64,000 nucleotides of DNA from a virus: IMG/VR virus record IMGVR_UViG_3300017917_003565, positions 1 through 64,000 of that record, one strand, 5' to 3'. Below, piece by piece: positions 4,601-43,942 of this stretch (position 1 is the stretch's first letter; the number at the start of each line of letters is the position of its first letter). The translations under genes were made by a program, and so were the position numbers. The notes below the pieces were generated by a model. It saw nothing but the letters and a program-made list of their open reading frames with translations, searched no databases and was not told the origin of the DNA.

Positions 4601-6291
4601 GTGACATCTAGACCGGTGGCTCGGATCTGATCAATGAACTTGTGTTCGGTATCTTCGTCACCAAAACTGATGATACTGCTAGGAGGCCCGGCACCAAAAT
4701 CATGCTTGCCTAGGCCTTTCATATTGCTAATGTGTTGTCCTAGTTTGTACCAGTCATACACATCGCTGACATCCACACGCAGGGTGCCTGCGGGCATGGT
4801 AGGCTTGAATTCAGGACCGGGTGGATTGTCAGGGTTGTAATCTTCTTTGGCTCTATATCGTTTGTATTCTTTGTATAAGTTTTCAAAAAGGCCATTGGCC
4901 TGAGCAATCTGTGGATGGCCTTGACGATCTGTTTTTAATTTTAACTTGTTGGCTTCTTTGCCTACTTGTCCGGGCTTGATGTCCACTGTGAGTGCCATAC
5001 TGAAGCGTGGATCTTTGGCTTGTGCCCGGGTGGGAATATATCCACTTGCGCTTTCTTCCAGATCGTGTGCCTGTCCTGCATCAAAATGTTCGGGATGCAA
5101 TCTGGCCCAGTCACGCATGAGTACTCCGGCTCTGGCATTGGCTTCATTTTCATATTCGCTGCCAGTTTCGCCTGCTGAGGCAGGAACATCTTCACGCTCG
5201 TGTTGGCGCTTGTGTGTGAGTTCATGTGCTACCGTACGCAACACATCCATGATGTGTCGATTGCCCCAGGCCACTTCCAGGATCTTTGAATCATCTTGAT
5301 AACGACCAAAGGTTTTGTGCACCTTAGGCCACTGTGGATCTCTGCGCAACTTCACAGTTGGCATGTTTTGTATTTTGAGTTCTGCCGTACAAAACTTGAT
5401 AAAGTCTTTTAATATCTGTTCGTCGGTGACTCCTGCATCTTCTCTGATGCTTTCGCCGCCATCACCACCTGCATCACCACCTTCGGTGCCTGCTGGATGA
5501 TCTTGCCCAGCATAGGCTGTGCCCGGATACCAATAGGCTCCATAGCCATACTTTACTTTCTTTTTCTTTTTCTTCCGGCGCTCGTCTAGACTTAACAACT
5601 GATCTTTGGCCGCGTTACGTGCATCATATAACTTTTTGATCAGACCTTGTGTGCGCAGGATTTTGAATGCTAGATTCTCTGGCCCAAACTCACCGTGAGC
5701 ATCCAGCCCGGCCTGGCGGTATTCTTTGATCTTGTCAGCCATGGCTGAAATCTTTTCATAATCTTGGCTCGCAACAGCGGCTTCGATCCTGTGTCCTAGA
5801 TCCTCAAACTTTGATCGGACTGAAATATCATCTACGTCTGGTCTGCGTCTCTTTGGAACACTGACCCAGTCATTGTTGATGATGCTGTAGATACCTTGAC
5901 TGACATGTTTTTTATTCGCGTCCTGCACATACAGTTCAACATCATAACCGCCGATTTTTATATCGTGCTGATCATTATAGGCGTACTTTTTGGCATCAAA
6001 CAGTTCGCGATACACTTCGCTGGCATCGGCCTGAGGAAGATCCACCACTAGGTGCAGATCTATATCAGAATGGGGGGTATAGGTGTAAGCGGCGTTGGAA
6101 CCTGAAACAGTGATGTCTTTGACTTCAACGTTGATGCCCAAAAATTCTCGGAAATCGTCGGCAATTTTCAGCAGTTGTTCACGTACCTCGGGACGCATTT
6201 TTTCATCGGCGCCCCAGATACGCGGATTTAATCGATCGTTGAATTTGACAGCATCGCCAAGATCGTAGGAATCTAACTCATGGATGTTCAT
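1687..6291 (-). CDS. 1534-aa multidomain protein: pol-beta-type nucleotidyltransferase, zincin metallopeptidase, amidoligase (COOH-NH2 ligase type 2)
   Basis: GSNAAY...SDIDLH (NTase); AHELTH and E-NEANA (HExxH zincin); GFEAE, EPDGSL, GLEIVSP, STGLHM, YIEFRSPGG (amidoligase). Confidence 0.75.
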   Translation of the reverse strand: MNIHELDSYDLGDAVKFNDRLNPRIWGADEKMRPEVREQLLKIADDFREFLGINVEVKDITVSGSNAAYTYTPHSDIDLHLVVDLPQADASEVYRELFDAKKYAYNDQHDIKIGGYDVELYVQDANKKHVSQGIYSIINNDWVSVPKRRRPDVDDISVRSKFEDLGHRIEAAVASQDYEKISAMADKIKEYRQAGLDAHGEFGPENLAFKILRTQGLIKKLYDARNAAKDQLLSLDERRKKKKKKVKYGYGAYWYPGTAYAGQDHPAGTEGGDAGGDGGESIREDAGVTDEQILKDFIKFCTAELKIQNMPTVKLRRDPQWPKVHKTFGRYQDDSKILEVAWGNRHIMDVLRTVAHELTHKRQHEREDVPASAGETGSEYENEANARAGVLMRDWARLHPEHFDAGQAHDLEESASGYIPTRAQAKDPRFSMALTVDIKPGQVGKEANKLKLKTDRQGHPQIAQANGLFENLYKEYKRYRAKEDYNPDNPPGPEFKPTMPAGTLRVDVSDVYDWYKLGQHISNMKGLGKHDFGAGPPSSIISFGDEDTEHKFIDQIRATGLDVTDIDPRDPKRRVGKAVKTDPTYNVDETIQAPVNKSQDAEQYYRFIMGKIQLGRVLSRQEQEFLKMYQLYRRQVAESIEQPLDEVKMSPSALESWARSPEAQGIRAGFEAEMIFRDTKRDEDDEDQEPDYDYDERPDSVEHVVDFFSNDDYGYGLSPRGARELRNSLMEEFVEWRDEQIQEQWDNDAEDQVRDYMETNVWGDDEERDNRIVNKIDELFPDDDVEDIMQAGNAAPRFTKSSDQEAYEKENDLYAKYKQAYDAAYEEFESEIVSEFESQGEYYDSAREYFSDMMADSGDYDESDFLRDRYGYMSEIGNSFSLDWPYWTGGSSGGGSRDWDSIAESLHDVVGMDVKVGSGYHSTVRKDDRWIIEPDGSLDPDDDDDMGLEIVSPPMPLPQALEKLKAVIDWGNDEADAYTNNSTGLHMGISIPYVGGDVDYVKLVLFMGDEYILDKFGRASNTYAASAMQKLRQNIAGARNRGELTEAKLDPMGALELVQKNLIELASRYVQQGVGNSKYTSAHIKDGYIEFRSPGGDYLSMESRGEYDDIKNTMLRFARAMQIAGSPALERREYAKKLYKLISPGAQDDALKLFSEYAAGTISPEQLKKQWADAVLRKEIPSTGKIEYEVYDMNKSKSPDGVIDTFYATDYDDANDIYKKKYKDDPRWNSLDVRIKHPWFDVKDSYGDIILTVRAKDIDSANEKVQAEYGDRLSDDWQVFRRPDETPEPEKKLSQRAQVAQRLKQRSIWWAVEFGGKGTLVQARDKAEAKAQAEKQDDFFARNRSYVENIRPATDREIEDWVNQQADNEQDRAQIRARVGEPQPAGAVRDTGHYKVRWRERRNGQEVEDSLNIDAENANAAMDRIRSALQAQGRDVISIEANPQEPPPWRQRAQSSGEPIPGSTMDLARQRAAQSSGEFTGAWRVLDRSGEEVYRFSGVGNNQSDANRTAQTWLISQGDRLENQGPFNVVPEMT

Positions 6292-9079: not shown

Positions 9080-9808
9080 TTATTTAGTTGTGACCACGAT
9101 GGGCATGGTTTTTCTTATGAGTCCTGGGTGTACGAGATTCAACATGGTTATCCAGCTGGAGTTGTTGTAGTCCACGAAAAAATAATCTTGGCTGCTTTTG
9201 AACTGGGCGTCACAGATCCATGATTTCAAAGATGGTGCCAAACGCACATGATCCAGTTGATTGTTCAAAAACTCAGTGAGACGTTGTTTTTGTTCGTCCG
9301 TGAGCTTGGCATATCTAAAATAGCTTCGTAGACTGTATTTTGATCGTTGCAGTCTCACAGTGTTTTTGGGTCGATCTATCTGGGCACGAGAATAGGTTTT
9401 GTTGGCAAGTTCGGGCATGCCATCTAACTGTTGCAACAGTGCCGGGTCGTTGCTGTAGATATGTCCTTGATGCAGACCCACTACCAGTTTGAAATCATGA
9501 TCAGTGTTCAGCAACACATCAGCCAAGGCATGCAGATCCTGTATGGTTTTGTCTGTGATGGGTCTCCAGAATCGATGCATGCTGGGTGTGGACCCATGCT
9601 GGGCCCAGCGTTGTTCAGCCATTTCTCGCCATTGGCAACGTCGATGTATGGTTCGATCTATCTCCTTGTGATTCAACACTCGTAGACTGTTGATCTCATC
9701 GAGATCGAAGGCCATGCAGTATTCAAAACGATCGTAGAACCAACGATCTTTGCATACTGTCTTAAATGGCAGAGTTGGGAGTGTCAAGTCTGATGTATCC
9801 ATCGGCAT
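9080..9808 (-). CDS. Hypothetical protein
   Basis: 242-aa ORF overlapping the clpA end. Confidence 0.6.
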   Translation of the reverse strand: MPMDTSDLTLPTLPFKTVCKDRWFYDRFEYCMAFDLDEINSLRVLNHKEIDRTIHRRCQWREMAEQRWAQHGSTPSMHRFWRPITDKTIQDLHALADVLLNTDHDFKLVVGLHQGHIYSNDPALLQQLDGMPELANKTYSRAQIDRPKNTVRLQRSKYSLRSYFRYAKLTDEQKQRLTEFLNNQLDHVRLAPSLKSWICDAQFKSSQDYFFVDYNNSSWITMLNLVHPGLIRKTMPIVVTTK

Positions 9809-12041
9809 CTACCATGGGCGACGCCTGTGGTAGGTCAATAGTGAAATCCACTGCTCCGTCTCGGAGATCTACATTGATCTGGCAGTTTTCCAGTTTGTCA
9901 AACAGTATACGCTTGCTCAAGGGCACGCGAATCAGCTCGTCGATTTTGCGTCCCAAAGGTCGTGCGCCCATTTTAGAATCATAGCCCTTGTCGGCCAGCA
10001 TGTCGATCACGGCCTCAGTTAATGACAGACGTATGTTCTTATTCAACAGGCTGTCTTTGAGCTCGTCTACAAACTTGAGCACCACTTTCTTCACTGCCAA
10101 GGTATCTAGTTTGTTGAACTTGCACACACAGTCTATCCTGTTGCGTAGTTCGGGTTTGAAAAACTCTTTCATGGCCCGGTCTTCGGATCCGGTTTTTTCC
10201 AAGCTCTGGCCAAAGCCAATGTTGTTGTTTTCATTGTCGCGAGCACCCAAGTTAGATGTCATGATGATGATGCAGTTTTTGAGATCCACGGTTTTGCCTG
10301 CGGTACCAGTGATTCGTGCTTCGTCTAACATCTGTAACATGATGTTAATCACATCTGGATGAGCTTTCTCTATCTCATCAAACAACAATATAGAGAAAGG
10401 ATGTTTGCTGACATCTGCAATGAGTTTGCCGCCACCTAGATTGCCATCTTCGAATCCTACATACCCAGGTGGTGCTCCAATCAGACCACTCACGGTGTGT
10501 CGTTCTTGATATTCACTCATGTCATATTTCAGCAGTTTCATATCAAGATTTTCTGCCAACAATCTGGCCAGTTCAGTTTTACCAGTGCCGGTGGGGCCCA
10601 GAAACAAAAAACTGGCTATAGGGCGACGGTTGTTGCCTATGCCGGAGAAGTTGATATACACCCGTTCCAGCACACGATCCACGGCATCATCTTGCCCATA
10701 GAGTCGTTGTTTGATGTTGCTTTCTAGCTCAGTGACTCTGGTGCTTCGCTCATTTTCTAAACGATCCAAAGGCACATCAGTCACGCGACTCAACTGTGCC
10801 ATGATCATGTCACGTGTGACTGTGATCAGGCCAGCATCCTTTACACGCTCTCTGGCGCAGGCACCATCCAACAAATCAATGCTCTTATCAGGATTCTTAC
10901 GATCATGCATGTAACGACCACTTAACTCTACTGCTGTGGTTATAGCTTCAGTATCGATTAGCACATTATGGAATGACTCCAGACGTGGACTCAATCCAAT
11001 CAGGATCTGTTCTGTAGTTGCGGCATCAGGTTCATCCACGCCCACTCTATGGAACCTGCGCATAAGTGCTCGATCCTTTTCAAAACTTTCATAAAACTCT
11101 TCCCAGGTAGTGTTGGCCACGACCTTGATGGCTCCACGTGTAATGGCTGGCTTCAACATATTGGCCATGTCTAGAGTGCTTTGACTGGAGCTTCCTGCAC
11201 CCTTGATAGTGTGCGCTTCGTCAATGAACAACACACAGTTTTTCTTGGTTTCCAGAGCGGTGATTACAGCCTTGAACTTTTCTTCAAACTCACCGCGATA
11301 TTTTGATCCGGCCAACAATGAGCCAACTTCTAGACTCCACACTTCGTGATCTTTCAAGAACTCTGGCACACGTCCAGCTGAGATTTCCTGTGCCAGACCT
11401 TCTACGATGGCAGTTTTGCCCACACCAGGATCTCCAACCATGAGCACATTGGCTTTGAACTTGCGTGCCAACACAGTGATTATTTCTTCTAACTCTGAGC
11501 TACGACCAATCATGGGTTCCAGGCGATCTTCTCGCGCCAACTGTGTGAGATTCACACAGTGCTCTGCAAGTATTTCTGTGGCCTGCTGATCGGTGAGTTG
11601 TACATCACTTTGTCTGTAGTTGCCCTGATAAAACTCCACAAACTCGGTTTTCTTTACTCCGTATTTGAGTAGGAAATAATGTGCGTGACTATTGGTCTCG
11701 GCCATCATGGCCAGGTAAAGATCAACAGTGCTGATGGTTCTACGACCCGTGAATAGAACCTGAGTAAGTGCTCGATTGAAACAGCGTTCTAATGCATTGG
11801 TCTTTTTGGGTTGAATGTCTTTGGTGGTGACCACCGAGGTCAGACCCGACAGGTATGCCAGCAGTTCGGAATCCAGCATGGCTACATCGGTGCCAAACTT
11901 CTCCAGCACACGGCGGAATGGTTCGTGACGTATCAGGGCCAACAACACATGTTCGGTCATGACATATTCGTGTCGTAGTTCTCGTGCCAGTTTGACCGCG
12001 GCATCAACTATCTGTTCGATTTCAGGATTGTTCTGCATCAT
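9762..12041 (-). CDS. clpA: ATP-dependent Clp protease ATPase subunit, ClpA-like
   Basis: Clp N domain; two AAA+ modules (GDPGVGKT/FIDEAH, GPTGTGKT/LFDEIEKAH); IGF loop; no ClpB middle domain. Confidence 0.9.
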   Translation of the reverse strand: MMQNNPEIEQIVDAAVKLARELRHEYVMTEHVLLALIRHEPFRRVLEKFGTDVAMLDSELLAYLSGLTSVVTTKDIQPKKTNALERCFNRALTQVLFTGRRTISTVDLYLAMMAETNSHAHYFLLKYGVKKTEFVEFYQGNYRQSDVQLTDQQATEILAEHCVNLTQLAREDRLEPMIGRSSELEEIITVLARKFKANVLMVGDPGVGKTAIVEGLAQEISAGRVPEFLKDHEVWSLEVGSLLAGSKYRGEFEEKFKAVITALETKKNCVLFIDEAHTIKGAGSSSQSTLDMANMLKPAITRGAIKVVANTTWEEFYESFEKDRALMRRFHRVGVDEPDAATTEQILIGLSPRLESFHNVLIDTEAITTAVELSGRYMHDRKNPDKSIDLLDGACARERVKDAGLITVTRDMIMAQLSRVTDVPLDRLENERSTRVTELESNIKQRLYGQDDAVDRVLERVYINFSGIGNNRRPIASFLFLGPTGTGKTELARLLAENLDMKLLKYDMSEYQERHTVSGLIGAPPGYVGFEDGNLGGGKLIADVSKHPFSILLFDEIEKAHPDVINIMLQMLDEARITGTAGKTVDLKNCIIIMTSNLGARDNENNNIGFGQSLEKTGSEDRAMKEFFKPELRNRIDCVCKFNKLDTLAVKKVVLKFVDELKDSLLNKNIRLSLTEAVIDMLADKGYDSKMGARPLGRKIDELIRVPLSKRILFDKLENCQINVDLRDGAVDFTIDLPQASPMVDADGYIRLDTPNSAI

Positions 12042-15879: not shown

Positions 15880-16296
15880 TTAACGAGGTCTGCCGGCAGT
15901 TACCCGTTGTATGAGTTCGGCGCTGTGTTCTATGTTGTTGTATTTGAGTCGGCAAAAAGTAGCACTCACAGGACCTTTGCTATAGGCCGTGTTCAACCCT
16001 TGTGCTATTTCGTTGAGGGCACGCGAAGCTCGATACCCATTTTCGTTGCGTGGAATCAGCTCTGAATATTTTTCATACAGTTCTGTCTTGGCAGCAACAG
16101 TCTGAGCATTTTGTGGTGCCAACATAGGATTATCACATTGTCGTCGATATTGTATGGCCTGTGTGCGAATCTCTGTGATCAAGAGATATTCGTTGGCATC
16201 ATAAGGTGCCATGAAGTAGGCATCCCAGAGAGCACATCCACTGAGTGCGGTGGTCGTCACAGTTGCCAACAATAATCTACGCATATTTCTCATCAA
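15880..16296 (-). CDS. Lipoprotein
   Basis: Basic N-terminus, hydrophobic stretch, lipobox LSGC. Confidence 0.7.
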
Positions 16297-17579
16297 TGAA
16301 ATTGACCTTCCTCTGTGGAACCCTTCATAGCTGTGGTAGATGAATCACGCTCGATAGTAGTGGTCACTGCATCAAAATAGGTGGTGCCCACTTCGCGCTG
16401 ATGCTTGACAGCAGTGAATCCACGATCAGCCGCAGCAAATTCTTGTTCCTGCAGTTTCACAAAACTGGTCATTCCATCTCGTGCATAACCGTGTGCTAGA
16501 TCAAACATACCATAGTTGAGCTGATGGAACCCGGCCAAGGTGATGAACTGAAACTTGTAACCCATGGCACCTAGTTCGCGTTGGAACTTGGCGATGGTAG
16601 CGTCATCGAGATTTTTCTTCCAGTTAAAACTGGGTGAACAGTTGTAGCTCAACATCTTGCCAGGGAACTGTTTATGGATGGCTTCAGCAAAGGCCCGGGC
16701 AAATGCCAGATCTGGTACTCCGGTCTCGCACCATACCAAGTCAGCATAGGGCGCATAGGCTAATCCGCGGCTTATGGCTTGGTTAAGTCCGTTGGCAGTG
16801 CGGTAGAAGCCTTCAACGGTGCGCTCGCCAGTGAGGAATGGTTGGTCAATGGGGTCAACATCGGATGTCACTAGATCTGCGGCCTCAGCATCAGTTCTAG
16901 CAATAAGGACAGTAGGAACGCCAAGCACATCACTAGCAAGACGTGCAGCGATGAGTTTCGCCACTGCTTCTCGAGTCGGGACCAGTACCTTTCCTCCCAT
17001 GTGTCCGCACTTCTTGACCGAGGCAAGTTGATCTTCGAAGTGGACTCCTGCGGCTCCTGCATGTATCATTCCTTTCATCAATTCAAAAGCATTTAACACA
17101 CCACCAAAGCCGGCTTCGGCGTCGGCCACGATGGGAACAAAATAATCTACATCATCTATGCCTTCCATCCACTGTATCTCGTCCGCACGCTTGAAAGTGT
17201 TGTTGATGCGGCGTACCACTGCGGGCACTGAATTGACCGGATACAGGCTCTGGTCCGGGTACATTTCGGATCCGAGATTGGCGTCAGCGGCCACTTGCCA
17301 ACCCGACAGATATATGGCACGCAACCCGGCCTTGGCCTGTTGTAGTGCCTGCATGCCTGTGAGTGCGCCCAGGGCGTTGACATAGTCGGTGGTTGTAAGA
17401 TCTCGCCACAAGCGATCAGCACCACGTTTTGCCAGGGTACATTCTTCTTGCACGCTGCCTCGCAATCGCACTACATCTTCTGCGGTGTATTCTCTTTTGA
17501 TGCCGGCCCATCTAGGGTTATCGGTCCAGTCCATCTGCAGAGCATAGGCTTGATGATTGCGGTCTTTGTTGTGATCCAT
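16293..17579 (-). CDS. aceA: Isocitrate lyase
   Basis: KKCGHMGGK catalytic motif, [32 protein letters not shown]; start at MDHNK after AAGGAG. Confidence 0.97.
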
Positions 17580-17640
17580 TGTGGTTCTCCTTGTTGATAC
17601 GATATTTATTTGCAGTGCAACAAGATTCTCAGTTTTTGGG

Positions 17641-17979
17641 TCAAGCACTGTCTTTTTTATTGGCCATGTATTTGTCCATGATAGCGTTGCCCACCCAAAC
17701 AGCCATATAACCTACAAAATACCATTCTGGAAAGTTACTGGGATTGTTTACTAAAATATAGATAAACCCCCAGGTGCTGATGACCCAGGCACCAAATCTG
17801 GTGAACTTCTTTTCATCTAAATGACCATCAGTGGACACTAGATCAGTGAGATCCAGTTTGTCATTGGGGTTGCGTGTCATCTGGATCAAGGTAATAATAA
17901 TGATCAACACCAACAGGGCCAGCAACAGTTCCATGGTATTGGCAGATGTGAAATAATTCATGAATTTTTCAAAGGTCAT
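17641..17979 (-). CDS. Membrane protein, possible holin/antiholin
   Basis: Three hydrophobic segments; follows spanins. Confidence 0.5.
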
Positions 17980-28756: not shown

Positions 28757-30733
28757 TTAAACAAAACTAATGGTCAAACCGGATCCTGATATAGAAAGTG
28801 CAGATCCTTGAAAAGACAATCTTTGTGATGGAACTGAGGAGTTGAAAATCACTCTTCTTGTGCTGCCCATACAGCTGACTAAATCTGCCCAATCTGCGCT
28901 GGTAGCGGTAGCAGGATCTGGTCCTTGGTAAAACGTGCTTGAGCTTTGTTCACCAAGGCTTTGTAGCCAGGTACGGATTTCTGGCCAACTCCAGCTTCGG
29001 TTGGTTTCTAATATCGTGGCTATCAACCCCACAGCCACTGGACATGCTGAACTGGTTCCGCTGAATCTAGTATCATAAGAAGTCAACCCGCCCGGAGTTT
29101 GATCATAACGAGGATAAGCGATTCCGTACGCACTTGTGCCCCATGCACTGGTCAAGGTGCCATCTCCTGGTGCATAGCAATCAATCTGATCGCCCATATC
29201 GCTGTAGTTGACCTTGCGCTCTTTGCCATCAGGCTGGGTGTCATCGTCTAAAGCACCTATGTTAATGGCAGGATACACAACCTGACCGCCCGATGAATAC
29301 TGTCCTAGGTGTTGTGGAAAACCTCTGCGACTGGTAGTATTGTAACAGGTGCTTCCAAACTCGTTGTGAGTAGCACTAGCCAAGGGAGTAGCCGCAGAAC
29401 TAGACCAATAGTTGTTGAAATCGGCGCTGTTGGATGCCACTTGTTTTTGATTGCTGTTGCCAGCGGCCACAACAAAAATAACACCACTGGCTACGAGCTC
29501 GTCTCCGGCTGTGGTCAGATTGTTGGTCAGCATTTCTCCTTTGGCGCGACCACCGTCGCCTGCACTGCCAAGATAGGCCATGAATGCAGGTTTAGATCCC
29601 GAATACGCAACTCCTCCGCTACCTGAAGTTCCTTGACGGAAGTAATAGTATCCGGTGCTAGGTATAGTAGCACGGAACCCCCAACTGTTGCTGCTTATGG
29701 TAGGATCCTTGGTACCATAGGTAGGATTTACTGGTTTGTTGACGTGGAATATCTTCATCACATCAAAATACAAATCAACATTTAGACCAAACCCATAAGA
29801 TCCATAGGCATCTATAAACCATTTGTTGGCATTGTAGGCCCAGCCATAGGTTCTTCCATAGGCCAACCCAGCGCAGGCAGTACCATGTTGTCCTTCAGCT
29901 GACACTGCACTATTGGTGCCATTGCAGTTGGCACGAGTATAGGTACCAGGTATTGTAACTGTACCTGCTGTGCTGAACTGACTGCTTCTGGCAGACGAGT
30001 TGCCCCACCATTCTCTGGCCACGCTTTCCACAGGTACTGTGGTACCGTCCCAACGTGTGGTCAATCGAGTACCTGGGTTGGCGTTAAACCAAGCCGGATC
30101 AATATAGTAAGGTCCTTCGAGCACCACATCTAACACTCCGCAGGTGCCACCGGCAGACAGTTTGTTGCCTGGAACATAATCAGTGGGGCCGGTACCGGTG
30201 TCATTGAACTCGGCATGACCAAACCAACAGCCTTCGTCACCTACTATGACATCGATATCTCTACCGGTATTGGTATTGGGGATGGTATTGGCCAGGATGG
30301 TACTGACCGCTTGCCCTTGCCAAGGATTGGCGCTTTGGGCGCTGCGCAACAGTTGATATCCGGCTCGATTTAGCTCTGTGCTAGTGGCAGGATTTGGCAA
30401 CAGTCCACTGAAGTTTCTATAGTTTTTTACTGTGCTGGTATAGCGTGTGGGATCGCATCGCAGTTGATCAGGACAAGGCGGAAACAGCTCTGGATATTTG
30501 GATTTGTCCAAGTCTACAAATTTAACATCCGAACACTGCCTTACTAAATCTGCTTCCTCATCGGTCATGAGATAAATGGCTCGAGTAGGGCTATGATCCA
30601 TTTCATCGGTACATTCTACAGACCTAGGTGGTATATTGTCATCCAAGGTCCCATCTTGTGTAAGAGCCGTGTGTACCTGGGTCCAAACTTCCGGAGCTGT
30701 TACTCCAACTACATAGTATTTTTTCTCACTCAT
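28757..30733 (-). CDS. Subtilisin-like S8 serine protease
   Basis: IVGDEG (Asp), HGTACAG (His), AAGN, SGTSSACP (Ser); N-terminal prodomain. Confidence 0.85.
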   Translation of the reverse strand: MSEKKYYVVGVTAPEVWTQVHTALTQDGTLDDNIPPRSVECTDEMDHSPTRAIYLMTDEEADLVRQCSDVKFVDLDKSKYPELFPPCPDQLRCDPTRYTSTVKNYRNFSGLLPNPATSTELNRAGYQLLRSAQSANPWQGQAVSTILANTIPNTNTGRDIDVIVGDEGCWFGHAEFNDTGTGPTDYVPGNKLSAGGTCGVLDVVLEGPYYIDPAWFNANPGTRLTTRWDGTTVPVESVAREWWGNSSARSSQFSTAGTVTIPGTYTRANCNGTNSAVSAEGQHGTACAGLAYGRTYGWAYNANKWFIDAYGSYGFGLNVDLYFDVMKIFHVNKPVNPTYGTKDPTISSNSWGFRATIPSTGYYYFRQGTSGSGGVAYSGSKPAFMAYLGSAGDGGRAKGEMLTNNLTTAGDELVASGVIFVVAAGNSNQKQVASNSADFNNYWSSSAATPLASATHNEFGSTCYNTTSRRGFPQHLGQYSSGGQVVYPAINIGALDDDTQPDGKERKVNYSDMGDQIDCYAPGDGTLTSAWGTSAYGIAYPRYDQTPGGLTSYDTRFSGTSSACPVAVGLIATILETNRSWSWPEIRTWLQSLGEQSSSTFYQGPDPATATSADWADLVSCMGSTRRVIFNSSVPSQRLSFQGSALSISGSGLTISFV

Positions 30734-30741
30734 GTCATACT

Positions 30742-32103
30742 TCAAAATAGGGTTACTGAGCCCCAACCAGAACTGTAGTAGATCTGTGGGTAGCCGGTAG
30801 TGGTGTTGTAGACCATGTCACCGAGCTGAGGAGAGAGAGCATTGATTTGAGATTGATTGAGATTAGGCAATCTAAACGGGCCGCCGCCAGTGGCACTGAC
30901 ACGCACCGGCGAGGACAGACTAAGATCAGTTGATGAGCTGATTGCAGGTGAACCTGCTCCGGCACCCACAAAGTTGCCGGCTATAACATTTCCTGACACG
31001 CTCAAACTGGTCAAAGTGCCCACAGATGTCAATGAACTGGTGACCACGTTGGAACTCAAAGTAGTGCCTGTGAGCAATGCGGCATTGCTGCTGGTAGACA
31101 CCCCAGTGAGCTGGCTACCATTGCCAATAAAATATGCACCAGTAACATTGCCTGTAGCACTTACTACCCCGACTGTTCTTAGGTTTCCGCCTGCGATGTT
31201 TCCACCAGTGATGTTGCCTGTGGCACTGATTAACCCACCGGTCAACAAGTTTCCGCCTGTGACGTTGCCAGCGGTAACTGTACCAGTGGTAGAAATAGTA
31301 TTGCTACCAAATGCGGACAATAACGTGACTACGTTGGCATTAGAATAGGTGGTTGGTAATCCTGTGAGTTGGCTACCATTGCCCAAGATATAACTGCCGC
31401 TGACATTGCCAGCGGCTGACACTACTCCAGCTGTAGTTATATTTCCGCCGGTGACGTTGCCTGTGGCTGTGACCTGTCCTGTGGTTCTTAGATTACCACC
31501 GGTGACATTACCGGTCGCGGTTAGGACACCACCAGTGAGCAAGTTACCACCAGTGATGTTGGACCCACTGGTAACAGTTGACGTCGCTGAGATCTGTCCA
31601 GCAGTAAACATGTTACCGCCTGTGACATCTCCAGTGGCCGAAATCACTCCAGTTGTGGTTAGATTACCGCCTGTGACGTTGCCTGTGGCTACTACACGTC
31701 CAGCAGTGTTGATATTGGCACCAGTGATGTTGCCGGTGGCTGTGACCAACCCTACAGTTCTTAAGTTGCCGCCCTGTATAGTGCTAGTGGCTGAGATCTG
31801 CCCAGCAGTTAATATATTTCCGCCTGTGACGTTGCCTGTGGCTGTAACGGAACTGACTGTGACATTTCCGCTGAGATTTCCGCTGACGTTGCCTACCACG
31901 TTGCCTAAAAAGTATGACGCTGTTACGTTACCAGTCACAGTAAGTGCTGTAAGTGTACCTACTGATGTTATATTGGGTTGAGAGCTACTGGTTACAAGAC
32001 CAGCTGTGGTTGCAAAAGCCTTGACATTGGCAAAATTTACATCAAGCTGACTTAAAGGAATCTGTCCAACTTCGTCGGCAAATATGTATGGTACTACTGG
32101 CAT
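30742..32103 (-). CDS. Tail-fibre-like repeat protein
   Basis: Many ~17-aa SATGNVTGGN repeats. Confidence 0.7.
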   Translation of the reverse strand: MPVVPYIFADEVGQIPLSQLDVNFANVKAFATTAGLVTSSSQPNITSVGTLTALTVTGNVTASYFLGNVVGNVSGNLSGNVTVSSVTATGNVTGGNILTAGQISATSTIQGGNLRTVGLVTATGNITGANINTAGRVVATGNVTGGNLTTTGVISATGDVTGGNMFTAGQISATSTVTSGSNITGGNLLTGGVLTATGNVTGGNLRTTGQVTATGNVTGGNITTAGVVSAAGNVSGSYILGNGSQLTGLPTTYSNANVVTLLSAFGSNTISTTGTVTAGNVTGGNLLTGGLISATGNITGGNIAGGNLRTVGVVSATGNVTGAYFIGNGSQLTGVSTSSNAALLTGTTLSSNVVTSSLTSVGTLTSLSVSGNVIAGNFVGAGAGSPAISSSTDLSLSSPVRVSATGGGPFRLPNLNQSQINALSPQLGDMVYNTTTGYPQIYYSSGWGSVTLF

Positions 32104-40226: not shown

Positions 40227-40751
40227 TCAATCCACATTGGGCGGAGGCATGGCCTTTAGTTTATCCCACACTGATTGTTTTTCTTTGATGTGTTTTTCCA
40301 AAGCTCGATAGCGATCACCCAGTTCTCGCAGTTCCTGCCATTCAGATTCCAGAGCTGGATTTACGGTCAACAGATTCAATCTTTCTCGAATTTCGCGTAT
40401 GGAGCCCATGAGACTTTCGCCATTGATTTCGATGTCAGCATCTTCACCGTTGACTTGTAGTTTGGCACCGGTGGGATTGCTGGTAATCCAGGGAGCCACG
40501 GTAGCTGTCCCTGTGTTGGTCCAAACATTGGGATAAGCATACCCGTTGGTCCCACTGACGTTATTGATCGCAGTAAGATCGCTGATGGTCAGAGTGGGCA
40601 CCGTGCCGCTGGCAGTGTAATAATCACCATCACCACTGTAGGAACCAATATGGCTGAAATCGAGCGTGATGCTGTTATTGTCATTGATGATGATGCTGTC
40701 ATCCATGGTTTGAGAGGCTGTGCCCGGAGGCACATTTATTGTAAGTGACAT
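40227..40751 (-). CDS. Hypothetical protein
   Basis: 174 aa, T/N-rich N-terminus, coiled-coil C-terminus. Confidence 0.6.
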   Translation of the reverse strand: MSLTINVPPGTASQTMDDSIIINDNNSITLDFSHIGSYSGDGDYYTASGTVPTLTISDLTAINNVSGTNGYAYPNVWTNTGTATVAPWITSNPTGAKLQVNGEDADIEINGESLMGSIREIRERLNLLTVNPALESEWQELRELGDRYRALEKHIKEKQSVWDKLKAMPPPNVD

Positions 40752-41839
40752 TAGGCTTTCCTTTCGAACTCACGCATGAATTCCACCAGTGCTTGTACGC
40801 CTGCCACAGGCATGGCGTTGTAGATGCAGGCACGCATACCGCCGGCCAGTTTGTGCCCACGCAGAGCTATCAGCCCTGCTTCGGTTGATTGGGTCAAAAA
40901 CTTTTCATTCAATCCTTCATCTTTGAGATAAAACGTCACATTGGCCCGAGAACGGCACTCCGGACTGACCCGATTTTCATACAGCGAACTGGAATCAATG
41001 TAGTCGTACAACAAAGATGACTTGATTTTGCCAAGCCGTTCCATTTCTGCCACTCCGCCTTGGCGTTTGAGCCATTTCAACACCAGTCCAGAAACATAGA
41101 TTGCAAAAGTAGGTGGAGTGTTTACCCAAGGCACAGTATTTTTGGCCCAGTCCCAAATGGTCGGAGTTATGGGCATGGCGTGTCCCAACAGATCCCGGCG
41201 AACTATGACCACAGTGACTCCGGCTGGCCCTATGTTTTTTTGTGCTGCAGCAAACAACACTCCGCACTTACTGACGTCCATGTGCCTTGATAGGATATTG
41301 CTAGAGACATCAGCCACTAATGGCACTCCCGCGGTATCAGGAAAATCTTCAAACTCCACTCCGCCTACAGTTTCGTTGGAACAGATATGCACATAAGCTG
41401 CATCTTGAGAGAGATTCCATTGATCGCGATCTGGAATGCTGGTAAACTGACCATTGGATGGACAAGCCACGATGTTTGCCTGCCCATATTTTTGTGCTTC
41501 TTGGGCCGACATCTCAGACCAGATACCAGTGACAACAAAATCAGCTGTGCGATTCTTGGACAATGGCAAGAGATTCATGGGTATGGCTGCATTTTGTCCA
41601 ATACCTCCTCCCTGCAACATCAATATTTCATAGTCATCGGGAATCGCCATCAACTCACGTAGGTCAGCCAATGTTTCATAATAGACTTCTAAGAACTCCT
41701 GGCTACGATGGTTGAGTTCCATCATGCTGGTGCCTACACCGTTCCAGTTCAACATTTCGTCGGCGACCTGTTGTAGGACTTCTTCAGGTAGAGCCGACGG
41801 TCCGGGAGTGAAGTTGTAAACCCGATGATCAAACTTCAT
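40751..41839 (-). CDS. serC: Phosphoserine aminotransferase
   Basis: YNFTPGPSALP, HRS, CSNETVGG, DVSS, AQKNIGPAG (PLP Lys), NTPP, GMRACIYN. Confidence 0.95.
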   Translation of the reverse strand: MKFDHRVYNFTPGPSALPEEVLQQVADEMLNWNGVGTSMMELNHRSQEFLEVYYETLADLRELMAIPDDYEILMLQGGGIGQNAAIPMNLLPLSKNRTADFVVTGIWSEMSAQEAQKYGQANIVACPSNGQFTSIPDRDQWNLSQDAAYVHICSNETVGGVEFEDFPDTAGVPLVADVSSNILSRHMDVSKCGVLFAAAQKNIGPAGVTVVIVRRDLLGHAMPITPTIWDWAKNTVPWVNTPPTFAIYVSGLVLKWLKRQGGVAEMERLGKIKSSLLYDYIDSSSLYENRVSPECRSRANVTFYLKDEGLNEKFLTQSTEAGLIALRGHKLAGGMRACIYNAMPVAGVQALVEFMREFERKA

Positions 41840-42338: not shown

Positions 42339-42575
42339 CTAGTGTAGAACTTGATCAACAGGTCTAGGCTCGTTGACTTGCTCTACATATTTAACGAATT
42401 CGTCGTCAATAATCAGTCTCTCGTCGTCGTGGGCCTGTGCCTGCTCGTCTGGCACTCCCAAAATCCTCATGAGGCCGCCAACATGAACTTCGGTTATACC
42501 ACAGTCATGCAATACCACGCAGAGATTTAGAATCGACAGGCGTATGGCCTGATCAACAGGAAGATCGTCCAGCAT
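42339..42575 (-). CDS. Hypothetical protein
   Basis: 78-aa ORF, TAAGTA 6 nt upstream. Confidence 0.6.
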   Translation of the reverse strand: MLDDLPVDQAIRLSILNLCVVLHDCGITEVHVGGLMRILGVPDEQAQAHDDERLIIDDEFVKYVEQVNEPRPVDQVLH

Positions 42576-42589
42576 AACACATACTTATG

Positions 42590-42868
42590 CTATCGGTATC
42601 GGCTTTCAATTTCTTGGGGTGATGATGGAACCACGCCTGTGGTCACTGTGTGTATTTTAACGATGCCGGATTCTTGGCACACAGGCTCGTCGGCAAATGC
42701 CCGGCTCACACGACAATCTTTGTTGTTTACGGCACTAACAGCATGGTCAGTTACTGTGCGTCCAGTAGTTTCACTCACAGCCACACTGCCTATGCCCAGT
42801 CCGGTGAGTACCATGGGAGTAGCACAACCCGACAATGCTACGGTACAGATCAACAGACAGCGGATCAT
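42590..42868 (-). CDS. Lipoprotein
   Basis: Lipobox LSGC; AGGAG RBS. Confidence 0.7.
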   Translation of the reverse strand: MIRCLLICTVALSGCATPMVLTGLGIGSVAVSETTGRTVTDHAVSAVNNKDCRVSRAFADEPVCQESGIVKIHTVTTGVVPSSPQEIESRYR

Positions 42869-42879
42869 GAGCTCTCCTA

Positions 42880-43190
42880 TGTAAGTGCCCGGCTACCTTA
42901 TGTCACAGGCCCCGGGCTGGAATAATACCAATTCGATGTGCTGTTTACTATCCCGCCGCAGTCGGTGTGGCCAAGTTTAAGGACTCACTACCACCAACCC
43001 GCACCACTAAGGCTGGTGCGCCGCCCTTCATTTGCCCCGAAGCCGGGTTGACATAGGTTTTGCTACTGGACTATTTGCTAGACCTCAACGGCTTTACTCG
43101 AGTTTACGGTTTATTGATCTAGTTAGTCAGGCTTGATCCGGTCCATCGCTTCCAATAGCAAAACCTATATCAGGGGGCGAACCCCCTGTG
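42880..43190 (-). ncRNA. Candidate structured RNA(s): 22-bp rod plus hairpin cluster
   Basis: Inverted repeat 43049-43070/43151-43172 whose two mismatches are G-U pairs on the minus strand; UUCG hairpins. Confidence 0.6.
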
Positions 43191-43193
43191 GTA

Positions 43194-43517
43194 TTAGGCT
43201 ACTTCTTTAACTGCAGATTTTGCAGATGCTTTAGTTGCCTTGACCTTGACTTCACCGCGCTTGGCGATCTTGGTCTTCTCAGCCAGTTTGTTGGCTACTG
43301 CATAGCCAGCGTCGCCAGTCATGCCCAAAGTCTGCAAGTGCTGGAGAGCTTCTAACTTGGTCATTGCCTTGGGCAATTCGATCAAGTTAATGTTGGTGCA
43401 ACCTGCTTTGTTGAGGATCTTGATACGAGCTACCAAGTCATTGGCGAAACGAGCTTTGACAGTACCGTTAGGGTTCTGTGCCGTACCTGCTACTGTGAAT
43501 AACTTTTCTGCTGCCAT
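43194..43517 (-). CDS. Basic hypothetical protein
   Basis: 107 aa, K/A-rich; sigma70 promoter near 43580-43610. Confidence 0.7.
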   Translation of the reverse strand: MAAEKLFTVAGTAQNPNGTVKARFANDLVARIKILNKAGCTNINLIELPKAMTKLEALQHLQTLGMTGDAGYAVANKLAEKTKIAKRGEVKVKATKASAKSAVKEVA

Positions 43518-43637
43518 TTTGTGTTGCCTTTCTAAGTTGCCTTACTAGTTGATAAAAGTTTACTGCTACTACAATGACCATTATACTTGAAATCGAAATC
43601 AATGTCAACCATAATAGTCATATCTGGTTTACCAAAA

Positions 43638-43769
43638 TCACTTGTTTTGGTCTAAGATATTGGTAACCACACTGTTGGTAGTGTCCACAGCCTGTGCCAA
43701 AAGACTCTTGGTCACGGCCGGGTGTAACACCGCCAGGGTCACTAGGATACCAAAAATAAATCCTTTCAT
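43638..43769 (-). CDS. Small membrane/secreted peptide (43 aa)
   Basis: Manual translation MKGFIFGILVTLAVLHP...; GGAGG RBS. Confidence 0.55.
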   Translation of the reverse strand: MKGFIFGILVTLAVLHPAVTKSLLAQAVDTTNSVVTNILDQNK

Positions 43770-43942
43770 CTGGAACCTCCAGTCATTTTGTCACGGGTCC
43801 ATTCTGACGCAGATGTCACGTCTTTGCCCAGACCGGCCACTGTGCCGCAACCCGTGATCATGAATACTGCTACCATGATCAAGGCCACCACACCCAGCGT
43901 AGGGCCATTCAGGGCCAACCATGCTACAAGTCGATCTTTCAT
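43766..43942 (-). CDS. Entericidin EcnA/B-like lipoprotein (58 aa)
   Basis: Manual translation ...ITGCGTVAGLGKDV...; AGGAGG RBS; below the ORF-track length cutoff. Confidence 0.7.
   Translation of the reverse strand: MKDRLVAWLALNGPTLGVVALIMVAVFMITGCGTVAGLGKDVTSASEWTRDKMTGGSR

What the first reader, a model, noticed from the sequence alone, without database searches (positions are those of the whole stretch)
43049..43190. 124-nt rod-shaped RNA with a 22-bp closing stem and strand-specific G-U pairs
Seen: arms 43151-72 and 43049-70 differ at two positions, both U-G wobbles on the minus strand but C-A mismatches on plus, which argues for RNA-level selection. Inside are a ~20-nt one-sided bulge and a GACUA-CUAGAUC/GGUCUAG-UAGUC stem. 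Upstream is a CAGGGGG-UUCG-CCCCCUG hairpin with no U tract. Inference: a stable small RNA such as a 6S-like polymerase decoy, an RNase III-processed sRNA, or a decoy for a defence sensor.
Basis: partly seen in the sequence, partly recalled or inferred. Interest (0 to 1): 0.7.

Follow-up and report, generated by a model that had tools for sequence, protein, structure and literature searches.

The report
New self-pairing phage small RNA
The flagged inverted repeat is a real folded RNA of about 124 bases from an uncatalogued family carried by large freshwater phages, usually inside their tRNA gene arrays, and its hairpin loops always hold self-complementary sequences, which suggests that the RNA pairs with copies of itself.

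Summary
The 22-nt arms, two strand-specific U-G wobbles and the upstream GC hairpin are all at the stated coordinates.

The element is not a simple rod. It is a three-way junction: a 22-bp closing stalk (P1), a hairpin (P2) and a bent arm (P3-P4).

More than 120 distinct relatives exist in viral and lake-metagenome contigs. They support 33 of 41 base pairs with compensatory changes. G-U pairs outnumber A-C by 345 to 64, so selection acts on the gene-sense RNA.

Nearly all relatives sit inside phage tRNA arrays, flush between two tRNAs, with one copy per genome. In this window's lineage the cassette follows a 107-aa gene that has a conserved consensus sigma-70 promoter.

The P4 loop hexamer occurs in eight types in canonical members. 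Every type is a perfect palindrome (124 of 124 sequences in the scan that did not select on it). The P2 loop is usually palindromic too. The best reading is homodimers or oligomers joined by kissing loops.

No match was found in Rfam 15, 50,697 cultured phage records, 6S, SRP, Y RNA, retron RNA or T4 rnaC/rnaD. Function is unknown.

This scan had noted stem-closed RNA cassettes in phage tRNA arrays on other DNA. As far as I can tell it had not noted this family or its palindromic loops.

The parts
43049..43172 (-). Whole structured RNA (about 124 nt), a member of the new family captured by covariance model R1
   Evidence: Model R1 hits 43043-43174 on the minus strand at 113.4 bits, E 7e-24. 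It is the only hit in the window. The inverted repeat is and the fold.
43151..43172 (-). P1, 5' strand of the 22-bp closing stalk
   Evidence: In alignment A2, 20 of 21 P1 pairs show changes on both sides.
43049..43070 (-). P1, 3' strand of the closing stalk
   Evidence: The U-G wobble at 43155/43066 falls on a position where U-G is the family's commonest pair (columns 23/122).
43148..43150 (-). J1/2 junction strand. Together with the last P1 nucleotide it forms an invariant 4-nt motif.
   Evidence: Invariant columns 28-31 in A2. Still invariant or nearly so in A4.
43126..43147 (-). P2 hairpin. Its loop holds a 4-nt palindrome at 43135-43138.
   Evidence: The closing pair covaries between C-G and G-C, and inner pairs covary too. 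24 of 32 distinct P2 loops hold a palindrome of 4 nt or more, against 6.75 expected from shuffling. The window copy has one A-C mismatch in this stem.
43123..43125 (-). J2/3 junction strand, invariant
   Evidence: Invariant columns 59-61.
43116..43122 (-). P3, 5' strand
   Evidence: Perfect 7-bp helix in the window. 6 of 7 pairs show compensatory change in the family.
43078..43084 (-). P3, 3' strand
43087..43111 (-). P4 hairpin: stem at 43111-43106 with 43092-43087, and a 13-nt loop at 43105-43093
   Evidence: The stem covaries. The window copy has one C-C mismatch. The loop flanks are invariant.
43097..43102 (-). Self-complementary hexamer in the P4 loop, the proposed kissing-loop contact
   Evidence: In 124 of 124 distinct sequences found without selecting on the four inner bases, the hexamer is a perfect palindrome, in 7 types. 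An eighth type appears in A4. The symmetric positions are 100% Watson-Crick against 63% when shuffled, 0 of 500 shuffles as high.
43071..43077 (-). J3/1 junction strand, largely invariant
43171..43188 (-). GC hairpin with a UUCG loop, directly abutting P1. It is the 3' hairpin of the upstream gene.
   Evidence: The same hairpin follows the gene in relatives that lack the RNA, such as L002, L005 and L008.
43194..43517 (-). Upstream 107-aa gene (P0001). The RNA lies in its 3' untranslated region.
   Evidence: 137 relatives were found in viral contigs. No Pfam, PHROG or PDB-fold match.
43580..43608 (-). Consensus sigma-70 promoter, 12 of 12 matches with a 17-nt spacer. It is the likely driver of the gene plus the RNA.
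   Evidence: Both hexamers are conserved while the spacer varies, across about 24 relatives checked.

Best explanation
The element is a gene for a stable, structured non-coding RNA of about 124 nt. It belongs to an uncatalogued family carried as a single-copy accessory cassette by large freshwater phages of about 200-370 kb.

Shown: the fold is a three-way junction. A closing stalk of about 22 bp (P1) carries a short hairpin (P2) and a bent arm (P3, internal loop, P4). The junction strands and the loop flanks are invariant.

Shown: the usual home of the cassette is a phage tRNA operon. There the 5' strand of P1 overlaps the 3' CCA end of the preceding tRNA by 3-5 nt, and the next tRNA starts within about 12 nt after P1.

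Inferred: the tRNA-processing nucleases release the RNA. RNase P cuts downstream. A cut at the tRNA 3' end, possibly by RNase III in the stalk, frees the upstream side.

Shown: in this window's lineage the genomes carry few or no tRNAs. The cassette sits instead behind a conserved 107-aa gene driven by a consensus sigma-70 promoter.

Inferred: here the RNA is made as the 3' UTR of an abundant transcript and then cut out.

Shown: the P4 loop hexamer is always a perfect palindrome, although its sequence switches among at least eight types. The P2 loop centre is usually palindromic as well.

Inferred: the RNA works as a homodimer, or as a ring or chain, joined by loop-loop 'kissing' helices. The variable palindromes keep assembly specific to each phage's own RNA.

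Unknown: what the assembly does. My best guess is an RNA-only or RNA-protein scaffold or decoy acting on host RNA or tRNA machinery during infection.
For: The structure is real.
- RNAalifold on a MAFFT alignment of 34 sequences predicts 35 pairs, 29 of them with compensatory change.
- For the curated four-helix structure, 92% of cells are paired against 34-40% in slid controls. 33 of 41 pairs change on both sides. 0 of 500 shuffles reach the observed value.

It acts as RNA on the sense strand.
- G-U pairs outnumber A-C by 345 to 64.
- The RNA is co-oriented with every tRNA in all the arrays examined by ARAGORN.

Context.
- The upstream tRNA, mostly Glu-UUC, overlaps P1 by 3-5 nt in about 22 of 40 located members.
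- The downstream tRNA starts between -4 and +12 nt in about 27 of 40.

Copy number and distribution.
- There is one copy per genome in each of the five RNA-bearing records searched, three of them 100% complete.
- It is absent from complete close relatives.
- The window holds a single hit of 113 bits.

Expression.
- The consensus promoter is conserved.
- Terminators or U runs follow P1 in relatives L009, L012, L013 and L007.

Self-pairing.
- 124 of 124 loop hexamers are palindromic, in 7 types, in a scan that fixed only the outer C and G. An eighth type is in A4.
- The symmetric positions, including two adjacent nucleotides that cannot pair within one loop, are 100% complementary. The covariation score is 0.86 against 0.16 when shuffled.
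- Palindrome types recur in separate clades.
- P2 loops are palindromic in 24 of 32 distinct loop types, against 6.75 expected.

Precedent: ROOL and GOLLD RNAs lie near phage tRNA islands and form homo-oligomers through kissing loops (PMC12286853; PMC12990946).
Against: There are no expression or end-mapping data for any member. Dimerisation is inferred from sequence symmetry alone.

The palindromes contain no G-U-type symmetric pairs. That would also fit a strict DNA-level palindrome, although the number of independent types is small.

Some divergent members have odd quasi-palindromes with a central G, and several have non-palindromic P2 loops.

The window copy carries one mismatch each in P2 and P4, so it could be slightly degenerate.

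At the same locus, relatives L003 and L004 have only a plain hairpin with the same stem ends. The stalk alone may therefore serve the mRNA there.

No partner protein was found, and the function remains a guess.
Confidence: 0.7

Rival explanations
1. The element is mainly a cis-acting 3'-end element of the 107-aa gene's mRNA. It would be an RNase III processing site, a stabiliser or a terminator stem, and not a trans-acting RNA.
For: It lies in the 3' UTR, directly after the gene's own hairpin. The stalk is about 22 bp. Relatives L003 and L004 keep only a plain hairpin with the same stem ends at this locus. In L013 and L007 a U run follows P1.
Against: The same RNA, with its invariant junction and loop features, occurs in dozens of tRNA arrays where there is no mRNA to stabilise. 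The conserved interior and the palindromic loops are not needed for processing or termination. The window has no U tract after P1. The two roles can coexist.
Confidence: 0.12
2. It is a DNA-level element: a cruciform, a binding site for a dimeric protein, a restriction or methylation-site decoy, or a MITE-like mobile inverted repeat.
For: The loop hexamers are strict Watson-Crick palindromes of the kind type II enzymes recognise, with no G-U-type symmetry. Presence and absence vary between close relatives. Interiors appear to be swapped between similar stalks.
Against: Helices tolerate G-U but not A-C, by 345 to 64, which is strand-specific. Stalk sequences diverge freely with compensation, so they are not conserved transposase ends. 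There is one copy per genome. The element always shares the tRNAs' strand. The palindrome flanks are direct repeats, not inverted ones.
Confidence: 0.04
3. It is a monomeric decoy or inhibitor RNA that binds a host protein, such as RNA polymerase (as 6S does), Ro/Rsr (as Y RNA does) or a tRNA-targeting defence nuclease. On this view the palindromes are protein-recognition features.
For: It sits among phage tRNAs, which are known to counter tRNA-targeting defences (background: PMC11464382, listed). Its junction nucleotides are invariant.
Against: There is no 6S, Y RNA or other Rfam match. No TROVE/Rsr gene is present in five RNA-bearing genomes. A protein site would not be expected to switch among eight sequences while staying perfectly self-complementary. 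A decoy role for a dimer is not excluded.
Confidence: 0.1
4. It is a retron-like msr-msd RNA, a template for reverse transcription. The closing inverted repeat is followed by a conserved AGC, as in retrons.
For: It has a long terminal inverted repeat, and the invariant motif right after the 5' strand contains AGC. The likeness to retrons is recalled from memory.
Against: No reverse transcriptase (PF00078) was found in five RNA-bearing genomes, three of them complete. There is no Rfam msr match. The RNA is embedded between tRNAs.
Confidence: 0.01

Closest known systems
ROOL (RF03087) and GOLLD (RF02032) RNAs
   Same: They are phage or prophage non-coding RNAs of unknown function that lie in or near tRNA arrays. 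They form homo-oligomers held partly by kissing loops whose intermolecular pairs covary (PMC12286853; PMC12990946).
   Different: They are about 580 to more than 800 nt long, with ornate multi-pseudoknot folds. There is no sequence or covariance-model similarity. The present RNA is about 124 nt, a simple three-way junction, and its oligomerisation is so far only inferred.
Phage T4 small stable RNAs rnaC and rnaD (species 1 and 2; AF158101 70908-71171)
   Same: They are small RNAs of 139 and 119 nt with unknown function, encoded flush with the last tRNA of a phage tRNA cluster on the same strand.
   Different: Model R1 finds nothing at rnaC or rnaD; the best score in the 10-kb region is 10 bits, elsewhere. 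rnaC folds like a tRNA with a T arm, and rnaD has no significant fold. Neither has a long closing stalk or palindromic loops.
HIV-1 dimerisation initiation site and other kissing-loop RNA dimers
   Same: A six-base self-complementary sequence, flanked by unpaired adenines, sits in a hairpin loop. Variants keep the palindrome while changing its sequence (own knowledge; review PMC7357161, listed).
   Different: The system is unrelated: a viral genomic RNA against a small phage-encoded RNA. Here the loop is 13 nt, and a second palindromic loop exists on the same molecule.
phi29 prohead RNA (pRNA, RF00044)
   Same: It is about 120 nt long. A long helix formed by the paired 5' and 3' ends joins a three-way junction, and two hairpin loops make intermolecular pairs to build a ring (own knowledge; mentioned in PMC12990946).
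   Different: There is no model match. The pRNA loops are complementary to each other, whereas here each loop is complementary to itself. pRNA phages are small podoviruses, and nothing links the present RNA to DNA packaging.
Stem-closed RNA cassettes in phage tRNA arrays
   Same: A closing stem of about 20 bp starts at the preceding tRNA's CCA end and encloses a folded interior. I confirmed that other such cassettes occur in the same arrays. Interiors look swappable: L007 and L012 against the window, L006, L009 and L013.
   Different: Those notes describe many different interiors. This report defines one interior family, shows its copy outside a tRNA array, and adds the palindromic-loop signature.

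Membership tests
New family defined here (covariance model R1) | Full-length match to the four-helix model, with the invariant junction strands and the P4 loop flanks | tested here: met
   The window scores 113.4 bits, E 7e-24, over model positions 1-136. All invariant columns are present.
New family defined here (covariance model R1) | Perfect 6-nt palindrome in the P4 loop | tested here: met
   43097-43102 reads the same on both strands. This is the commonest of the eight types.
6S RNA (RF00013 and clan) | Covariance-model match; rod of about 180 nt with a large central bubble that mimics an open promoter | tested here: not met
   No Rfam hit at gathering score in the window, and none at E<=10 in 42800-43300. 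The fold is a 124-nt three-way junction.
Bacterial SRP (4.5S) RNA (RF00169) | Covariance-model match with the domain IV loops | tested here: not met
Bacterial Y RNA (YrlA) with Rsr | A Ro60/Rsr (TROVE, PF05731) gene in the same genome, and a Y RNA model match | tested here: not met
   No TROVE match in the window's own record or in five RNA-bearing genomes, three of them complete, with positive controls working. No Rfam match.
Retron msr-msd RNA | An associated reverse transcriptase gene | tested here: not met
   No PF00078 match in five RNA-bearing genomes.
ROOL / GOLLD | Covariance-model match | tested here: not met
ROOL / GOLLD | Location in or near phage tRNA arrays | tested here: met
   Met for the family. 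Not met for the window copy, whose record has no tRNA.
ROOL / GOLLD | Homo-oligomer formation through kissing loops | not testable with these tools
   Only the sequence signature is available.
T4 rnaC / rnaD | Sequence and structure homology | tested here: not met
   Model R1, run with filters off on AF158101 66000-76000, gives no hit at 70908-71171.
Intrinsic (Rho-independent) terminator | GC-rich stem followed by a U tract | tested here: not met
   No terminator-like site was found on the minus strand in 42400-43900. No U run follows either the GC hairpin or P1.
MITE or dispersed palindromic repeat | Multiple copies per genome with conserved terminal inverted repeats | tested here: not met
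   There is a single copy in the own record and in complete genomes. The arms diverge with compensation.
RNase III substrate | Uninterrupted double helix of about 20 bp or more | tested here: met
   P1 is 22 bp in the window and 20-27 bp across the family. Cleavage itself cannot be tested here. No phage-encoded RNase III was found.

The most novel reading that the evidence does not exclude
This may be the smallest natural RNA that builds a defined RNA-only quaternary assembly. Each 124-nt monomer carries two orthogonal self-complementary loops, so copies could join alternately through P4-P4 and P2-P2 kissing helices into closed dimers, even-numbered rings or filaments. The fast-switching palindromes would act as assembly 'barcodes' that stop RNAs of co-infecting phages from mixing. 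Such an assembly, made in bulk from a tRNA operon or a consensus promoter, could trap or scaffold host tRNA or RNA-processing factors.
Probability: 0.3. Interest if true: 0.9.

Novelty: new variant of a known kind. Interest (0 to 1): 0.78.

Why it matters
Natural RNAs with a defined quaternary structure are rare. The striking recent examples, ROOL and GOLLD, are large, hard to handle and of unknown function.

A 124-nt RNA from the same genomic niche carries a clean evolutionary signature of self-pairing. That would give a small, tractable system for asking why phages put self-assembling RNAs next to their tRNAs. Gels, SAXS, crystallography and cryo-EM would all be practical at this size.

The finding also adds to a picture in which phage tRNA operons carry stem-closed 'passenger' RNAs released by tRNA processing. 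That layer of phage biology is barely catalogued.

The window copy shows that such a passenger can leave the tRNA array. It survives behind a strongly promoted protein gene in genomes with few or no tRNAs.

Tried and rejected
- **Rfam 15.** Searched at gathering scores over the whole window and at E<=10 over 42800-43300. Nothing was found.
- **tRNA/tmRNA scan of the window.** None found.
- **blastn against 50,697 cultured phage records.** Queried with the window region and with two array members. No match.
- **Representative genomes of 185,579 prokaryote species.** 34 pattern hits, none confirmed by the model, so no host or prophage copy was seen.
- **T4 rnaC/rnaD homology.** Rejected.
- **Y RNA with Rsr, retron RT, phage RtcB (a circularisation idea) and phage RNase III.** All absent from RNA-bearing genomes.
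- **The 107-aa neighbour as an RNA partner.**
  - No Pfam or PHROG family.
  - The AlphaFold model has mean pLDDT 70 and no PDB fold match with E<=0.001.
  - The protein occurs in complete genomes without the RNA. It is missing from one complete genome that has the RNA. It is therefore not an obligate partner.
- **Downstream lipoprotein-like gene.** No relatives found by the pattern method.
- **AT-rich pattern scan.** It returned mostly chance hits and had to be sifted with the model.
- **An apparent non-palindromic loop in L263 and L234.** This was an artefact of my keep-length alignment. The realignment shows a normal palindrome.
- **Fremin et al. 2023 (PMC10690425).** This paper lists thousands of unnamed IMG/VR RNA candidates and may include this family. 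Its supplements are not held, so I could not check.

Full report
**The observation**

The window is the first 64 kb of a 112-kb viral contig. CheckV rates it 33% complete, so the phage is large. Relatives reach 315-367 kb. All genes around the finding lie on the minus strand.

The arms are 43049-43070 and 43151-43172, 22 nt each, 20 of 22 complementary and 80 nt apart. On the minus strand both exceptions are U-G wobbles. On the plus strand they would be A-C mismatches.

The minus strand folds to -54.1 kcal/mol with z -4.4. The plus strand folds to -48.9 kcal/mol with z -2.1. The GC hairpin with a UUCG loop sits at 43188-43171, directly against the stalk, and has no U tract.

**Relatives and structure**

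The upstream 107-aa gene has 137 relatives in viral contigs. In six of the closest, a homologous element follows the gene.

A conserved loop motif then pulled out dozens more. Three scans that did not use the loop sequence added further members. Two were of viral contigs and one was of metagenome contigs. Together they gave more than 120 distinct sequences. Contig names such as a Trout Bog Lake hypolimnion assembly point to freshwater lakes.

A MAFFT alignment of 34 members (A2) gives a consensus of four helices. RNAalifold predicts 35 pairs, 29 of them with compensatory change.

For my curated 41-pair structure:
- 92% of cells are paired, against 34-40% when partners are slid.
- 33 pairs change on both sides.
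- No shuffle out of 500 reaches the observed values.

The fold is a three-way junction with these parts:
- An internal loop, and then P4 with a 13-nt loop.

The junction strands and the loop flanks are invariant.

**RNA, not DNA**

Across 77 sequences the helices hold 345 G-U pairs and only 64 A-C. Selection therefore acts on the gene-sense strand. One of the window's two wobbles lies where U-G is the family's commonest pair.

The element is single-copy in the window, in its own record and in complete genomes. Its arms diverge freely with compensation. It is therefore not a transposon-like repeat.

**Genomic context**

Outside the window's lineage, nearly every member lies inside a phage tRNA array of 10-45 tRNAs, on the tRNAs' strand.
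- In about 22 of 40 located cases, the preceding tRNA overlaps the 5' strand of P1 by 3-5 nt. This tRNA is mostly Glu-UUC. Its CCA end is thus paired into the stalk.
- In about 27 of 40 cases, the next tRNA starts between -4 and +12 nt from the end of P1.

The same arrays hold other RNAs closed by stems of 20-30 bp that are flush with tRNAs. One is a separate family of about 250 nt that often precedes this one. This agrees with earlier notes of this scan on other genomes. I checked their claim only partly.

P1 is 20-27 bp long, mode 22. The stalk therefore looks like a generic clamp or processing stem for passenger RNAs of tRNA operons. The interior (P2-P4) is the specific cargo.

**The window's lineage**

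Here the cassette sits behind the 107-aa gene. Its promoter matches the sigma-70 consensus 12 of 12. Both hexamers are kept across relatives while the spacer drifts. In relatives, P1 is followed by a U run or by a canonical terminator. The RNA is therefore most likely made as the 3' UTR of an abundant transcript.

Genomes with this arrangement have few tRNAs: 6 in a complete genome, 0 in an 89% complete one, and 0 in the window's own record. Close relatives without the RNA have 29-30 tRNAs. A genome with the RNA in its array has 33.

The RNA is accessory, because two complete relatives lack it altogether (positive control).

At this one locus the interiors belong to two different subgroups, while the stalks are alike. 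In L003 and L004 only a plain hairpin with the same stem ends remains.

**The palindromic loops**

This is the most telling feature. In the scan that fixed only the outer C and G of the P4 loop hexamer, all 124 distinct sequences carry a perfect palindrome, in seven types. An eighth type appears in members with a 14-nt loop. The inner four bases are UCGA, ACGU, GAUC, AAUU, GGCC, AUAU, AGCU or UGCA.

On alignment A4 the symmetric positions are 100% Watson-Crick complementary, against 63% when shuffled. The covariation score is 0.86 against 0.16, and 0 of 500 shuffles reach it. One of these 'pairs' joins two adjacent nucleotides, which cannot pair within a loop.

The types recur in separate clades of a rough tree. 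Divergent members keep other palindromes, or odd quasi-palindromes with a central G.

The P2 loop centre is palindromic in 24 of 32 distinct loop types, against 6.75 expected and a maximum of 14 in 2000 shuffles.

Because the flanks of the P4 hexamer are direct repeats rather than inverted ones, the symmetry is confined to the loop core. The simplest reading is an intermolecular loop-loop helix between two copies of the RNA, as in retroviral dimerisation sites. With two orthogonal self-complementary loops, closed dimers, rings or chains all become possible.

A strict DNA palindrome for a dimeric protein is the main alternative. It fits the absence of G-U-type symmetry. It does not fit the free switching of the sequence or the RNA-type constraints all around it.

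**Comparison with known families**

- No Rfam 15 family matches, even at E<=10. This rules out 6S, SRP, Y RNA, pRNA, ROOL, GOLLD and the known ribozymes as homologues.
- No cultured phage record matches by blastn.
- No representative prokaryote genome holds a confirmed copy.
- T4 rnaC and rnaD share the context but not the fold.
- RNA-bearing genomes encode no Rsr, reverse transcriptase, RtcB or RNase III.

The closest parallels are functional rather than homologous. ROOL and GOLLD lie near phage tRNA islands and assemble through kissing loops (PMC12286853; PMC12990946). phi29 pRNA has a similar size and plan.

A 2023 survey of IMG/VR lists thousands of unnamed candidates and may include this family. 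I could not check that.

**Verdict**

- '6S-like' is wrong.
- RNase III processing and a decoy role remain open.

The element belongs to a new, well-supported RNA family. Its sequence signature predicts self-assembly, and a native gel can test that directly.

Noticed in passing
window 42869-43048 (minus strand): A 180-nt GC-rich, hairpin-rich non-coding stretch lies between the RNA and the lipoprotein-like gene (42868..42590). It is 87-89% identical in L003, L309 and L413. Its last 40 nt or so are conserved in more loci (L006, L008, L368, L409). It may be a separate leader RNA, and the scan has already flagged it as another finding.
   Followed up: partly
window 43580-43608 and 43194-43517 (minus strand): A very conserved 107-aa protein has a Lys/Ala-rich tail and a perfect consensus sigma-70 promoter, kept across about 24 relatives checked. 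It has no Pfam or PHROG family. The AlphaFold model has a confident N-terminal beta-beta-alpha-beta-alpha domain with no PDB match. It is probably an abundant early protein of unknown role.
   Followed up: partly
L121:211-469, L113:2758-3008, L083 (reverse strand) 640-889: A second conserved cassette of about 250 nt, closed by a stem of 27-31 bp, begins at the CCA of tRNA-Glu. It often sits directly upstream of the RNA studied here and elsewhere in other arrays. 25 blastn hits were found.
   Followed up: partly
L101:770-859 and L101:4572-4669; L105 (reverse strand) 3361-3445 and 4551-4643: Further cassettes of about 90-100 nt, closed by stems of 20-24 bp, lie flush between tRNAs in the same arrays. 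They support a general 'stem-closed passenger RNA' design.
   Followed up: no
L003:3103-3170 and L004:3352-3394: At the locus behind the 107-aa gene, these relatives carry only a plain hairpin whose outer stem matches the ends of P1. This suggests an internal deletion of the cargo or an independent role for the stalk.
   Followed up: no
L007 and L012 versus window, L006, L009 and L013: The genomic site and the stalk sequence are alike, but the interiors belong to two different subgroups of the family. This suggests cassette exchange by recombination.
   Followed up: no
L092:10655-10689 and L109:1818-1843 / L125:5454-5479: Isolated hairpins carry the P4 stem and the same loop sequence without the rest of the RNA. 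Model matches are partial, at 35.6 and 19.5 bits.
   Followed up: no
window 16293-17648, 9762-12041, 40751-41839, 28757-30766 and 1687-6291: The phage carries auxiliary genes: an isocitrate lyase, a ClpB-like double AAA+ ATPase, a class-V aminotransferase, a subtilase, and a 1534-aa protein with amidoligase and nucleotidyltransferase domains.
   Followed up: no
L122:11618-11990; L102:2618-2694: One array-bearing contig encodes a tmRNA. Another encodes a tRNA with a CUA anticodon (an amber suppressor, called Pyl by ARAGORN).
   Followed up: no
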